DNA of 63,250 nucleotides. It comes from Hydrolagus affinis. Lineage: Eukaryota. Shown piece by piece: positions 3,283 to 12,913 of this stretch. The notes under the pieces were generated by a model. It saw nothing but the letters and a program-made list of their open reading frames with translations, did not search any database and was not told the DNA's origin. The DNA is taken from contig JAAILG010001668.1 in the NCBI GenBank assembly GCA_012026655.1, forward strand, positions 1-63,250. Direction: 5' to 3'. Positions within the stretch are counted from its first letter, which is position 1; each line of letters opens with the position of its first letter. The translations under genes and the position numbers were made by a program.

Positions 3283-3603
3283 TTAGCAATTGCATTTACC
3301 CTGAGCGTGTGATGGTGCTTCTTGGTGATGAATTATTTGATCTGGTGGGAACATCTGTCGATTCAACAGAATATGAGGTTGTATTTTTTTGAGGATTGCA
3401 GTTTTCATTGAGCCAACGAGGAAGAGAGCTTCATCAATCTCAAGTCCCCAGTTCTGAATTTTCTTCAAAGCTTTTACTCCAATACTTGCAGGACCTTCTA
3501 CCATGATTAGATACGTCCTGACCGGGCAATTCAAGCGTTCAGCTTTCGCAAAAAATTTTCTTTGGACTCTCCCCAGTAGTGCCAGAAATTCTCTCATGCA
3601 GAT
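3283..3603 (-). CDS. NT5C1 terminal exon, distal copy (6b), open frame but catalytic DD lost
   Basis: cacaaac[87 protein letters not shown]...CNC-stop; phase 0; could be an alternative exon or a pseudo-exon. Confidence 0.7.
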   Translation of the reverse strand: MCMREFLALLGRVQRKFFAKAERLNCPVRTYLIMVEGPASIGVKALKKIQNWGLEIDEALFLVGSMKTAILKKIQPHILLNRQMFPPDQIIHHQEAPSHAQGKCNC

Positions 3604-5905
3604 CTGTTTGTGAAACAGGTCAATTACATCTTCAGGAACAACTACCATATAACACTTCTTAAAACCTTAAAATGCCTGCTACTTTTGCACTGCGTACTGT
3701 ACTTTAAGAACGCTAGTCACGATCAAATCAATGAACAACGAAAAGGTGTATAAACAGAGTCAGTAAAATCTGCCACTAACGCGATTTGAAAATTCTTCAA
3801 ATTCTTCAAGATGACATTAGAATTATGCCGGCAGTTTCTGCCAATGAATAAGCTGTGTTCCACAGTGCAGGATTCAAATATTATTAGATTTAGAGAGACA
3901 GAAAACTAATCCAATGCGGAATTACATGGGCTACATCAATAGCATATTCCTGCCTGAAATCATTCCTATGTTTAATCATTTATTAGCAATTTATAGTGAA
4001 GCAATAGAAATTGAGTACAAATTTCTGATACTGATTTGGAGCATTTAAAAAAAATTGGACAAACGGGGGATCAGGTGGTACAGGAAAGAACAGAGAATCA
4101 GCATTAGGAGGGATGGCGTCCCAGAGGAACAAACGCCAACATATAAAAGAGGGGGTGATTGGTCTTCTACTGTCTACTGTCTTCCCTCCCCCCACCCTGT
4201 CCCCAGCTCGGGTCTGAAGCAGTGACTGTCCAGCGCCTTGGGACGTCCTCCTGACGTGAAAGGAGTTATATAAGTATCATTTTGTTGTTGTTGTTGTTAG
4301 GTGTTGGAATCCAGAAAATACTCAATAGTTATTTCACTATTAATAATATTAATCTAATTACGAAAAAGAAACAATCAAGTAACATCATAACAATAAGAAA
4401 TCCCAGAAGATTATTCGAGATATGACTCACGATAATCAGAAATGTGTCAAATTAAATTATAATGAGTGTTATTGAGCTCCTCGTGGTGCTCTGCTCAAAA
4501 TAATCAGAATCCTTGCATTTGATATAGTGTCTTATGTTGTCGAGACATCTTAAAGTACTTCATACTATATACTGTAAAGTAGATTAACTGCATTTTGTGG
4601 GAAAAATGCACGCAGCAAAATGGCTACAATTATTTATTTGTACAGTACTTAAAAATTTACTTTACACTTTTAAGAACCGATGAAGCACTGGCTTCACAAT
4701 CAACAAATTCATTGTCAAAAGCCTTATTTTTTAATGTAGAGATAAAAGGTTTTACAAAATACAAAGCTCTGTAATATAGAATTCAGGAAAATATCCCTAC
4801 CTCCTCCCTCCCCAATTCAACAACCTGTTATTAAATCTTTACCAACTTGCCTGCTCCCTCCCTTCAGTATGCAATGGCCTGCTCCATGCCTCCCTCCCTG
4901 TCCACCCCACCATTGGTGGTTGGGTTGTCATGCTCTCTGACTCCACCATCTGGAACTCCATCCTGGAGTCCCTCCACATTACCCCCTCCTTTCTCCTTTG
5001 CCTCCTTCAAGGCCTGTCTCAAACATCTTCCTCTTTGACCTTCAATCATTCTATATCAATACATATCTCTGGAATTTCCTTGTCTAGGTGGAATGCATGA
5101 AATTCTCCAGTTGGTTTGGATACTGTTTAGCACGGTGATGGGTTTCCACGTGTGTCAGACTCCTGGCTGATCAAAACTAAAGGGATGTAATAGGCATCAA
5201 GCTTGGGGTAATATTACCGCAAGATTTGGGGGTCTAATTTTCAGCTTTTCTTAACAGAATTGATTCTTTATTAAGAACTTCCTTTTGATATGTGGAAATT
5301 CTGCTCCAGATGTAAATTATGTTGCGGTGGAGTTCCTGTGGATGTGGTAACCTACAAAAATAATAATAATAATTCTTGTATTTGATATAGCGCCTTATCA
5401 TGTCTTCGAGATGTCTCAAAGCACTACACAGAACATATTGTAAAGTGAATTGACTGCATATTTTGTGGGTGAAATTCTGTTATCGGAAATAATTCCCATT
5501 TAATTGAGTCAGGTTCCTTACTAAAAAAAACACTGTTATTAAACAGTCTAAATGTGATCATTTTGTGCTTTTCACTGGTTCATCTCTTGCCTTGTCAGTA
5601 TTGCAGCACAATTGAGAGAATCAGCAATTTTTAAAGCCGGATGAATTGGTGAAACTCCCTCTGGTTCAATTCTATCTTTCTGAAGTGGAGTCTATGGAAA
5701 TCCTTCCCTCAACTCCTCAGTCTTGCCCCCTCTGTATCCATCTTCAAATCCTATCTTAAAACCTATCACTTCAAAGACTCAGACCTTTGGTCATCTCCCC
5801 CTTCCTCATTTTCCTCCTTCCCTTGCTATCCTTTGCTGCCATTGTAAAGTGCTCTGACTTTAATTACATGAAGGATGCACAAATTCTTATTGTTCTTATA
5901 ATGCA

Positions 5906-6500
5906 ACAGCAACAAAATTACACTTGCATAGCGCCTTTCACATCAGGAGGACGTCCCAAGGTGCTGGACAGTCTGTGCTGAGAATGGGGCCAAGGAGGGT
6001 GGAGGGAAAGGGGTGGATTTGGGGTGACCAATGTAACTGTCAAACAGGAGGGTTGTGAGGTGGGACTTGATAGAGGGCAGGGAGGGGGTGAGGCGGAGAG
6101 ACTGCGCAGAGTGCCTGAAGGCTCTCCTGCCAATGGTGGGGTGCGTGGGTCGGGGGACGTGGAGCAGACTGGAGACTGCTGAGTGGAGGGGGTGGGCAGG
6201 TTGGTAGGGGCTTAGAAGGTCACAGGTGTAGGGTGGGCGAGGCCATGGAGGGCTTTGAATGTGAGGACCAGGATCTTGAATTGGATCCTCTGGGTCAGGT
6301 GAGGATGGGGAAGATGGGGTCATATAAATCGAATATATAAATCAAAGTTGTCGTCGTTGTTGTCACGAAGCTTGGAACCATAGAGGACATGGGACGCAGA
6401 GTTCTGGATTATCTGCAACCTTTGGAGGGAGGAATTGGGAAAGCCGACAAGCAGGGCATTGGCGTAGTCAAGCCAGGATGCATCTGCCGCAGTGTGCATG
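5906..6500 (-). mobile_element. L2 LINE 3' fragment(s)
   Basis: Tail motif (+ strand) caaaattacacttgcatagcgcctttcacatcaggaggacgtcccaagg; frame reads TIGRRAFRHSA, typical of the L2 ORF2 end. Confidence 0.8.
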
Positions 6501-11132: not shown

Positions 11133-11435
11133 TTAATGCTTCTTGTATGCTGTAATGGATCCCGATTGAGTTGTTGAATGAAGTGATTGATCATCAAAGA
11201 AAATATGAGGGCGAATTTTATCTATGATCAGTAGTTTTGGTGTACCGTAAAGAACAAAGGCTTCATCCACCTCAAGGCCCCAGCCGCGAATTATCTTCAA
11301 AGCTTTTGCTCCATTAGTCCCACCGTATTTTGCCATGATCAAGTATATTCGGATTGGGCAATCCATACGTTCATTTTTGGCAAAGAACTTTTTCTGGAGT
11401 TTGCCGAGAGCTTCCAAAAATCCTACGAGAGGGGC
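11133..11435 (-). CDS. NT5C1 gene B terminal exon, proximal copy (6a)
   Basis: cacaaac[85 protein letters not shown]...AYKKH-stop; phase 0 fits exon 5; open frame. Confidence 0.85.
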   Translation of the reverse strand, partial: APLVGFLEALGKLQKKFFAKNERMDCPIRIYLIMAKYGGTNGAKALKIIRGWGLEVDEAFVLYGTPKLLIIDKIRPHIFFDDQSLHSTTQSGSITAYKKH

Positions 11436-12913
11436 CTGTTTGTGAAACAGGATGCATTACAACTTCAGAAACAACTGGCGTTCAATACAGTACTTCCAAA
11501 ACCTAAAATCACAGACTTAAGTTAATTTCTGCTAATTTCATACTCTGTCACTTTAGGTAACCAGCACAATAGTTAGGTTAAAGGACCTGAGTCTCATTTC
11601 CCCTTCATCTTTTGTGTGTTGTGCTTGCCTTCTTTTAGGTGACCCATACAAATAATCCTTGCATTTGATATAGCGCCTTATCACATCTTCTAGACTTCTC
11701 AAAGCACTTCACAGAATATACTGTAAAGTGAATTGACTGCATATTTTGTGGGCGAAAGGCAGCAGACAATTGCGCAGCAGACAGTGTCCCACAAACAGTC
11801 GTGGATGGACTGACCACATTTTTTTCTTTGAGGGATTATTAACTCTGGACCCATTGCTCAAATACTTCCACAGCCAGAATTCCCAAGCTTTTTCTTGGCC
11901 ACAGTGCTAATCTGCCATCAGCGCTTAGTATTTGCACAATAATTGCAGGGTTGTCATATCTTCCCATACTTCCTCTATTCTTTATGCATCTCAACTCCAA
12001 TCAGCATCTCTCCTGACTGATCTGGAGAGATGGCCATGGAAGGATTATCAAATGAATGGTGTAGAAAGACTTCTTTCCTTTACAGTGTGTTTCCAATCAC
12101 CCATTGCTCCCAAGGCACCCACTTTCCTGCAGAAATATACAGAATGATACGAGAACCACAAGCATTCAACATTCCCACCTTTTGAACTCCCACTTGTGTT
12201 AGAGAATGGTTGATGAGTTGATCATTTATACGTTTGGAATCTCAAGCAATTCACTAGATAACTGGGCTGGTGAGATTTGGAGGCATTTATTTTAATATAA
12301 AAGTTTAAACATAATATAAAGAGGTAACAACAAACCTACTCTTTTGAAACTTACTGCAAACAGAAGCAGTTCTTATTGTATAGTATAGTTATCAATGCCC
12401 TACATACTTTTGGAGCAACTAAGTTCCAAAAATGACCTGGAAACACAAAATCTTTTTCAAAATTTGTTAACTGAACCAAATCTTAACTGAACCAATTAAA
12501 GAACCCAAATCTGTATTTTTTTTAATCTTTACTCACTCTCAAAGCTCACTGTGGCAGATCAGCGCATTTCAACAGCTTTTTTATTTTAATCCGAACATAG
12601 GATTTCTCTAACAGTACGAAAGAAACTCTGCCAACAGTATTCCTTCCATTCAGTGACAGATAAACAAATGTGGGAAAGTACAGCTTTGAAAAGTGAAACT
12701 GATATAACGAGGACAATTCTTATTCATAAGGATTCTAAATGCTCCAATGGCAATGTAACATAATAGAAATTGAAAAGTAAACTTAAAAGAAAAAAAATCA
12801 CAAAACATTTCAGTGAACAGAACATCATATTGACAGATTCCCAGCATCTGTAGTATTTTGTGCTTTGATCATATTGACAAATATTGACAGATCAGAGTCA
12901 GTAGCTCTGAAAC

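What the first reader, a model, noticed from the sequence alone, without database searches (positions are those of the whole stretch)
3283..11510. Two copies of the NT5C1 last exon with homologous acceptor regions; one sits inside the dynein fossil
Seen: both copies are open, phase 0, and share ~70 nt of upstream intron (ctgtttgtgaaacagg...attaca...cttcag.aacaact...aaacct.aaa at 3604-3670 and 11436-11508). I found no second set of exons 1-5 between them. The 11.1-kb copy lies between dynein AAA5 and AAA6. Inference: single-exon duplication giving alternative last exons (374 vs 380 aa with the predicted first exon), or replacement of the old distal exon by a nearer copy.
Basis: partly seen in the sequence, partly recalled or inferred. 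Interest (0 to 1): 0.7.

Follow-up and report, generated by a model that had tools for sequence, protein, structure and literature searches.

The report
Three swappable endings of chimaera nucleotidase
A cartilaginous-fish copy of the AMP-degrading enzyme gene NT5C1 has three old, intact copies of its last exon, each lacking some catalytic residues, which likely serve as interchangeable endings of a protein predicted to be a low-activity regulatory subunit.

Summary
The two copies are real. They are A (11435-11133, minus strand) and B (3603-3283): open, phase 0, 63% identical, with no exons 1-5 between them. A third copy, C, lies on contig C31729. All three share an identical 16-nt acceptor and an ATTAAA 51-54 nt after the stop, and the genome search found one exon 5 of this type.

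A is orthologous to the last exon of shark and ray models. C is orthologous to the last exon that a Narcine RefSeq isoform joins to the same exon 5. So A and C predate the chimaera/shark split, and neither replaced the other. B has no known ortholog and no junction read, but it stayed open and indel-free with dN/dS about 0.3 (p about 0.01).

The exon carries HAD motifs II-III, and each copy lost different invariant residues. A fold prediction puts a contact with canonical NT5C1 on this exon (weak: close cousins pass).

The dynein fossil was not detected, and the 374/380 aa lengths were not reproduced (336-337/342-343).

Verdict: likely ancient tandem-duplicated alternative last exons, a new variant of a known kind. 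Splicing to B is untested.

The parts
50870..63175 (-). Gene 1: canonical NT5C1 (six exons), tandem upstream neighbour; all catalytic motifs intact (DGDAV, YLVTAR, GAPK, FFDDQ)
   Evidence: last exon 90% identical to a Pristiophorus canonical protein
41130..41225 (-). Gene 2 (divergent cartilaginous-fish paralog) coding exon 1; donor after 41133 or 41130
40817..40984 (-). Gene 2 exon 2
39767..39896 (-). Gene 2 exon 3
38831..38953 (-). Gene 2 exon 4
36626..36819 (-). Gene 2 exon 5, the shared constant exon; motif I reads DGDSF, cap segment degenerate; phase-0 GT donor at 36625
   Evidence: (single match of this type in the genome search)
11436..11480 (-). Conserved pre-acceptor element of copy A (last 16 nt identical in A, B and C)
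11133..11435 (-). Last-exon copy A, 100 aa; ortholog of the shark/ray annotated last exon; motif II Thr replaced by Met, Lys and DD kept
11079..11084 (-). ATTAAA, putative poly(A) signal of A (+51 from the stop)
3604..3647 (-). Conserved pre-acceptor element of copy B
3283..3603 (-). Last-exon copy B, 106 aa; open, no indel in the 83-codon core, branch dN/dS about 0.3; motif II Thr replaced by Met, DD replaced by NR
3226..3231 (-). ATTAAA, putative poly(A) signal of B (+54 from the stop)
1..53 (.). Contig end inside a repeat. Third copy C (G000:C31729:768-1085, +; 105 aa) is inferred to lie beyond this end; adjacency not shown

Best explanation
A divergent NT5C1 paralog of cartilaginous fishes has three intact copies of its last exon (A and B in this window, C on another contig), and exon 5 likely splices to any one of them, giving three predicted low-activity isoforms with different C-terminal thirds. 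Steps: (1) Shown: the exon was copied with its acceptor and ATTAAA, without exons 1-5. (2) Shown from database models: A and C each have elasmobranch orthologs joined to the same exon 5, so the A/C duplication predates the chimaera-shark split (about 400 My, recalled). (3) Inferred: B is of similar age (all three are 63-66% identical) and has been kept by selection on its protein, so it is likely spliced in some tissue. (4) Inferred: the choice is made by competition between three near-identical acceptors coupled to poly(A) cleavage after each exon; reaching B or C requires skipping A and its poly(A) site. (5) Shown: the exon holds the Thr, Lys and Asp-Asp invariant in 91 other family members, and each copy lost a different subset; low or no phosphatase activity is predicted. 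(6) Predicted: the isoforms work as non-catalytic subunits that dock through this exon onto the N-terminal half of canonical NT5C1 (such as neighbouring gene 1) and tune it.
For: Three copies share a 16-nt acceptor; 3 of 4 exact genome matches are these exons, the 4th is unrelated. All three have ATTAAA at +51/+54/+53. There is one exon 5 of this type among 44 genome matches and no hidden exons. C. milii XP_007898661.1 and four shark/ray proteins end in A. Narcine XP_069742572.1 joins the same exon 5 to C: 58% identity over the whole exon, tree 99/95. A ray 11-aa mini-exon precedes C in Narcine X1 and A in Amblyraja X2 and in a 963-nt intron-free Logan contig. B branch dN/dS is 0.31-0.36, LRT p 0.009-0.017 against 1; a neutral simulation gives P(open, no indel) of about 0.001 or less at 0.3 substitutions/site. 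Invariant residues T281, G311, K314, D328 and D329 of the canonical protein lie in this exon; losses per copy are. Complex prediction, canonical with A-type (same shark): score 0.63, best of 3 controls 0.01, runs agree in at least 94% of contacts, partner pLDDT at least 75. That mark was reached by 51 of 78 solved and 2 of 108 mismatched microbial pairs, and by 39 of 65 and 2 of 126 eukaryotic pairs. All partner contacts lie in the last exon.
Against: No junction read to A, B or C. Gene 2 was nearly silent in the two RNA runs laid (one sample): 2 reads on exon 5, the other 12 came from gene 1, and B was at background depth. No B-type protein turned up in two database searches. No single elasmobranch was seen with both an A and a C isoform; Narcine X2 and X4 were not seen. 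C's link to this contig is not shown. Branch dN/dS for A (0.5-0.7) and C (0.5-0.7) is not significantly below 1 on 83 codons. Close cousins of a true partner pass the complex test (10 of 12), so the pass may only reflect the family's self-assembly; predicted interface residues are not better conserved than the rest in A or C (15 of 26 vs 38 of 57; 13 of 26 vs 32 of 57; B 16 of 26 vs 26 of 57). Chimaera A keeps both motif-I aspartates, the Lys and DD, so it may retain activity. RefSeq entries are predicted models.
Confidence: 0.68

Rival explanations
1. A (and C) are used, but B is now a dead or dying orphan exon that lost function too recently to have decayed.
For: No B ortholog or B-ending protein found; no RNA support; B has the longest branch and lost the Mg-binding DD. 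dN/dS averages over the whole history and cannot date a recent loss.
Against: Frame, acceptor and ATTAAA are all intact; dN/dS about 0.3. The C. milii model shows the B tail nearly unchanged.
Confidence: 0.17
2. B and/or C are last exons of separate tandem genes whose exons 1-5 were lost, collapsed in assembly or lie on unassembled contigs.
For: The assembly is fragmented (245,464 contigs). C lies 767 bp from a contig start. This genome has another, separately expanded NT5C1 clade on short contigs. Genome searches score only the best candidates.
Against: B is contiguous with gene 2 and no exons lie between. There is one exon-5 match of this type. Narcine joins C to the orthologous exons 1-5.
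Confidence: 0.08
3. The isoforms are alternative last exons but remain active phosphatases with altered substrates, not regulatory pseudoenzymes.
For: Motif I DGD is kept in all gene-2 orthologs seen. Chimaera A keeps K and DD; Narcine C keeps T and K. The cap segment in exon 5 is remodelled.
Against: Every copy lacks at least one residue invariant in 91 other family members. Three of four elasmobranch A exons lack both Thr and Lys; B lacks Thr and both Asp.
Confidence: 0.2
4. One reading: the near copy A is a young replacement of the old distal exon B, inserted into a dynein pseudogene.
For: A is the exon annotated in C. milii.
Against: A groups with four elasmobranch last exons (99/92) and is as far from B as from C. 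No dynein signal was found.
Confidence: 0.02

Closest known systems
Tandem duplicated exon substitution events, C-terminal class (PMC9741552; passages read)
   Same: Homologous exons copied in tandem and swapped by splicing; 77 of 236 human events swap a C-terminal region; most events are ancient; TPM1 has three duplicated 3' exons.
   Different: The paper finds such regions tend to avoid ligand-binding residues and are often exposed tails. Here the exon holds most of the catalytic motifs and core strands, and each copy lost different catalytic residues. 'NT5C1' has 0 occurrences in its main text (supplements not read).
Cytosolic 5'-nucleotidase I (NT5C1A/B, Pfam PF06189, HAD superfamily)
   Same: Same Pfam family and six-exon layout; exons 2-4 are well conserved; predicted alpha/beta fold with weak HAD-type Foldseek hits.
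   Different: Motif I DGDSF instead of DGDAV, motif II Thr and/or motif III Asp-Asp lost, short C-terminus, three copies of the last exon.
Drosophila PGRP-LC / CG42235 / Pip 3' variable regions (PMC6191721; abstract and outline read)
   Same: Constant 5' exons with several duplicated 3' cassettes, each preceded by a conserved element.
   Different: There the choice is set by docking-site/selector RNA pairing. Here no specific docking site was found.

Membership tests
Tandem duplicated (homologous) alternative last exons | Homologous exon copies downstream of shared exons, without duplicated upstream exons | tested here: met
   (A and B contiguous with gene 2; C's adjacency not shown)
Tandem duplicated (homologous) alternative last exons | Each copy has its own in-phase acceptor, open frame, stop and poly(A) signal | tested here: met
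Tandem duplicated (homologous) alternative last exons | Transcripts join the shared exon to different copies | tested here: inconclusive
   Database models join exon 5 to A or to C in different species; none to B; the RNA runs laid were uninformative
Tandem duplicated (homologous) alternative last exons | Copies kept under purifying selection or conserved across species | tested here: met
   A and C have elasmobranch orthologs; B dN/dS about 0.3, p about 0.01
Active cN-I (HAD) 5'-nucleotidase | PF06189 domain | tested here: met
Active cN-I (HAD) 5'-nucleotidase | Motif I DxDx[T/V] | tested here: inconclusive
   Both aspartates kept, last position Phe (DGDSF) (motif from PMC3946280)
Active cN-I (HAD) 5'-nucleotidase | Motif II Ser/Thr | tested here: not met
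   Met in A and B, Ala in chimaera C; Thr only in Narcine C
Active cN-I (HAD) 5'-nucleotidase | Motif III Lys and two Asp | tested here: inconclusive
   Met in chimaera A; not met in B (NR) or C (DG)
Active cN-I (HAD) 5'-nucleotidase | AMP phosphatase activity, ADP activation | not testable with these tools
   needs an enzyme assay
Docking-site/selector RNA pairing (PGRP-LC or Dscam type) | One site in the pre-mRNA that pairs specifically with the element before each cassette | tested here: not met
   The best site (near 24.1 kb) is a G-rich stretch in repeat-like DNA that also pairs with unrelated acceptors and shuffled elements; scan covered 3.0-41.3 kb only
Dynein heavy-chain pseudogene | AAA5 and AAA6 homology in order on one strand | tested here: not met
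   detection limit about 0.3-0.4 substitutions/site

The most novel reading that the evidence does not exclude
For some 400 million years cartilaginous fishes have kept a nucleotidase pseudoenzyme with a cassette of three interchangeable C-terminal halves. Each half is the remnant of the active site and also the subunit-docking face, so splicing picks which dead subunit joins the AMP-degrading NT5C1 oligomer; a shared 30-nt pre-acceptor element, more conserved than the exons themselves, governs the choice.
Probability: 0.3. Interest if true: 0.72.

Novelty: new variant of a known kind. Interest (0 to 1): 0.52.

Why it matters
Duplicated last exons are a known device, but they usually swap exposed tails. 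Here the swapped exon is most of an enzyme's active site, and the copies lost different catalytic residues independently: Narcine C keeps the Thr and chimaera A keeps Lys and DD, so the ancestral exon had all of them. That makes a natural series for asking how a pseudoenzyme arises after exon duplication. NT5C1 is an ADP-activated AMP phosphatase tied to adenosine production and AMPK (PMC10383617, passages), so splice-selected inert subunits would be an undescribed way to tune it. In practice, databases show only one ending per species in what I saw, and one C. milii model fuses A with B.

Tried and rejected
Dynein fossil: tblastn with 1,185 ORFs from 39 dynein loci of this genome was too noisy to read, and its output was cut. 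Profiles for stalk-AAA5 and AAA6 and phmmer with single exons gave only background or repeat hits. PDB searches with two candidate ORFs found nothing relevant. Both candidate stretches are single-copy. Plus-strand ORFs outside 8.3-10.1 and 11.85-14.8 kb were not scanned against Pfam, only with my own profiles.

RNA: no RNA holder listed. Two raw RNA runs of a related organism (one sample, about 27-30% read) were swamped by repeats over 1.5-13.5 kb. Depth 1.9 on the A bin in one run may be gene-1 reads, as seen on exon 5. No joints on exon 5.

Docking-site RNA pairing was rejected. The ray 11-aa mini-exon was not found between exon 5 and base 1. A fourth last-exon copy near 8.8-9.3 kb gave E about 1 and no DNA-profile support. 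The fourth 16-mer match (C20502) is chance. A B ortholog was not found in 84 candidates or among 105 representatives (best single-stretch identity 54%, generic); both searches are weak for isoforms. No solved cN-I structure was found by sequence, and Foldseek gave only weak HAD-type hits (best E 5e-4). The Atlas gave only the family name.

Literature: searches NT5C1A+cartilaginous+duplication (2 papers), NT5C1A+shark (3), NT5C1+pseudoenzyme (0), alternative last exons+exon duplication+tandem+homologous (2) listed nothing on this locus (listings only; subscription papers not covered). Earlier scan findings: none.
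Full report
Setting. The window is a whole contig (G000:C1668) of a 1.11-Gb fragmented genome. The closest named proteins are from the chimaera Callorhinchus milii (93% over copy A), so this is likely a related chimaera. Two NT5C1 genes lie in tandem on the minus strand. Gene 1 (63175-50870) is canonical. Gene 2 has exons 1-5 at 41225-36626 and belongs to a divergent paralog also annotated in Heptranchias, Pristiophorus, Pristis, Heterodontus, Narcine and Amblyraja.

Observation. Copy A (11435-11133) and copy B (3603-3283) are open, phase 0 and match PF06189. 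They are 63% identical in DNA and 51% in protein over 83 codons, with no indel. The shared intron is real (37 of 45 columns over the last 44 nt). An NT5C1 profile found no exons 1-5 between exon 5 and base 1. A C. milii UniRef model contains pieces matching A, then the B tail, then the 2.9-kb stretch, which argues that another assembly has the same layout. From the ATG at 41225 the isoforms are 336-337 and 342-343 aa, not 374 and 380.

A third copy. DNA searches of the genome with A or B returned exactly three places; the third is C31729:768-1085. It is open (105 aa) and 65-66% identical to A and B. The last 16 nt before the acceptor are identical in all three. That 16-mer occurs 4 times in the genome, and the fourth is unrelated. 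ATTAAA lies 51, 54 and 53 nt from the three stops. C31729 holds no other NT5C1 exon, and the genome search found one exon 5 of the gene-2 type among 44 matches. C is therefore inferred to lie beyond the contig end, after B. Adjacency is not shown.

Age and use. The C. milii RefSeq model and four shark/ray proteins join exon 5 to A. A search with C returned Narcine bancroftii isoform X3, in which orthologous exons 1-5 are followed by a C-type exon with the same first residues and nearly the same last ones (58% identity, full coverage). In a 28-row tree A groups with the four elasmobranch A exons (99/92) and C with Narcine (99/95). B's place is unsure (long branch), and the bootstrap had not fully settled. 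A ray-specific 11-aa mini-exon precedes C in Narcine X1 and A in Amblyraja X2 and in an intron-free 963-nt Logan contig, so one gene can end either way within rays. A and C thus predate the chimaera-elasmobranch split (about 400 My, recalled). These are predicted models from different species; I saw no species with both isoforms.

Is B alive? No B-ending protein was found, and RNA was uninformative. Pairwise dN/dS for A-B is 0.32-0.50. A codon model gives the B branch dN/dS 0.31-0.36, with p 0.009-0.017 against neutrality. A and C give 0.5-0.7, not significant on their own (my own star-tree model, 83 codons). Under neutral decay of 0.3 substitutions/site, an open, indel-free core is expected about once in 1,000 or less (indel ratios assumed). 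B has therefore been constrained as coding sequence for most of its history. A recent loss cannot be excluded.

What is swapped. In 91 other family members, vertebrate to bacterial, five of seven invariant columns (T281, G311, K314, D328, D329) lie in this exon. They match HAD motif II Thr and motif III Lys and Asp-Asp as described in PMC3946280 (passages); the assignment to cN-I is my inference. Chimaera A lost the Thr; three of four elasmobranch A exons lost Thr and Lys; B lost Thr and both Asp; chimaera C lost Thr and one Asp; Narcine C lost one Asp. Motif I in exon 5 reads DGDSF. The Narcine C isoform folds confidently in its core (mean pLDDT 77.7), with the exon supplying three helices and three strands. 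A complex prediction of canonical with A-type protein from one shark scored 0.63 against a best control of 0.01 (runs agree in at least 94% of contacts, partner pLDDT at least 75; mark reached by 51 of 78 solved and 2 of 108 mismatched microbial pairs, 39 of 65 and 2 of 126 eukaryotic pairs). All partner contacts (residues 266-321) are in the last exon and face the canonical N-terminal half. This is weak: close cousins passed in 10 of 12 cases, cN-I self-assembles (tetramer, recalled), and interface residues are not clearly better conserved. No solved cN-I structure was found by sequence.

Mechanism. Most likely exon 5 splices to one of three near-identical acceptors, and each exon ends the transcript at its own ATTAAA (inferred). 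The products are predicted low-activity subunits that differ in the face that would dock on active NT5C1. The last 30 nt before the acceptor are 84-93% identical, while synonymous sites in the exons are about 40-60% identical. This suggests a regulatory element or gene conversion; it is unexplained. A PGRP-LC-type docking site was sought and rejected.

Dynein. No test found it. The simulation shows good power up to about 0.3 substitutions/site and little beyond 0.5. It plays no part in the explanation.

Comparison. This works like the C-terminal class of tandem duplicated exon substitutions (77 of 236 human events; PMC9741552, passages) and meets the structural tests for it; the transcript test is met only across species, for A and C. 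It differs in that the swapped exon is the catalytic half. My searches listed no paper on this locus. Papers seen: PMC9741552, PMC3946280 and PMC10383617 (passages), PMC6191721 (abstract and outline); all others as listings only; no supplements read. Verdict: real, new variant of a known kind, interest 0.52.

Noticed in passing
G000 short contigs C97590, C113326, C64259, C101665, C98229, C99203 (L006-L011), plus L016, L017, L019, L022, L023, L025, L026, L029, L031, L033: A separate, recently expanded NT5C1 clade: at least 6 closely similar last exons, 4 exon-5 and 6 exon-2 copies. They keep motif II Thr, Lys and DD; one exon-2 copy has a stop. Some may be allelic.
   Followed up: partly
window 11436-11465, 3604-3633; C31729:738-767: The 30 nt before the acceptor are 84-93% identical among copies whose exons are only 63-66% identical; the pyrimidine tract is weak. 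Unexplained: regulatory element or gene conversion.
   Followed up: partly
P0133, P0147, P0234 (ray proteins): Rays have an optional 11-aa mini-exon between exon 5 and the last exon; Amblyraja X2 also lacks exon 4; Narcine X5 ends in an unrelated sequence. No mini-exon was found in this window.
   Followed up: partly
window 8736-9330, minus strand: Single-copy stretch with a 133-codon open frame and two weak last-exon-like profile hits (E about 1), the best non-exon hits in the window. It could be a very old fourth copy or chance.
   Followed up: partly
gene 1 and gene 2 exons: NT5C1 looks internally repeated: exon 2 resembles exon 5 and exons 3-4 resemble the last exon (weak tblastn cross-hits), suggesting two HAD-like halves of which the first is non-catalytic.
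   Followed up: no
P0001 (UniRef A0A4W3HI29): This C. milii model appears to be an annotation chimera of copy A, the tail of copy B and a stretch matching window 2919-2887.
   Followed up: yes
G000:C40436 (L012, L030), C2032, C136636: Further, more distant NT5C1-like paralogs with compact exons (C40436) and a distinct exon-2 type.
   Followed up: no
window 48000-48900: CpG-rich element with internal repeats, also present in dynein locus L060; probably a mobile element.
   Followed up: no
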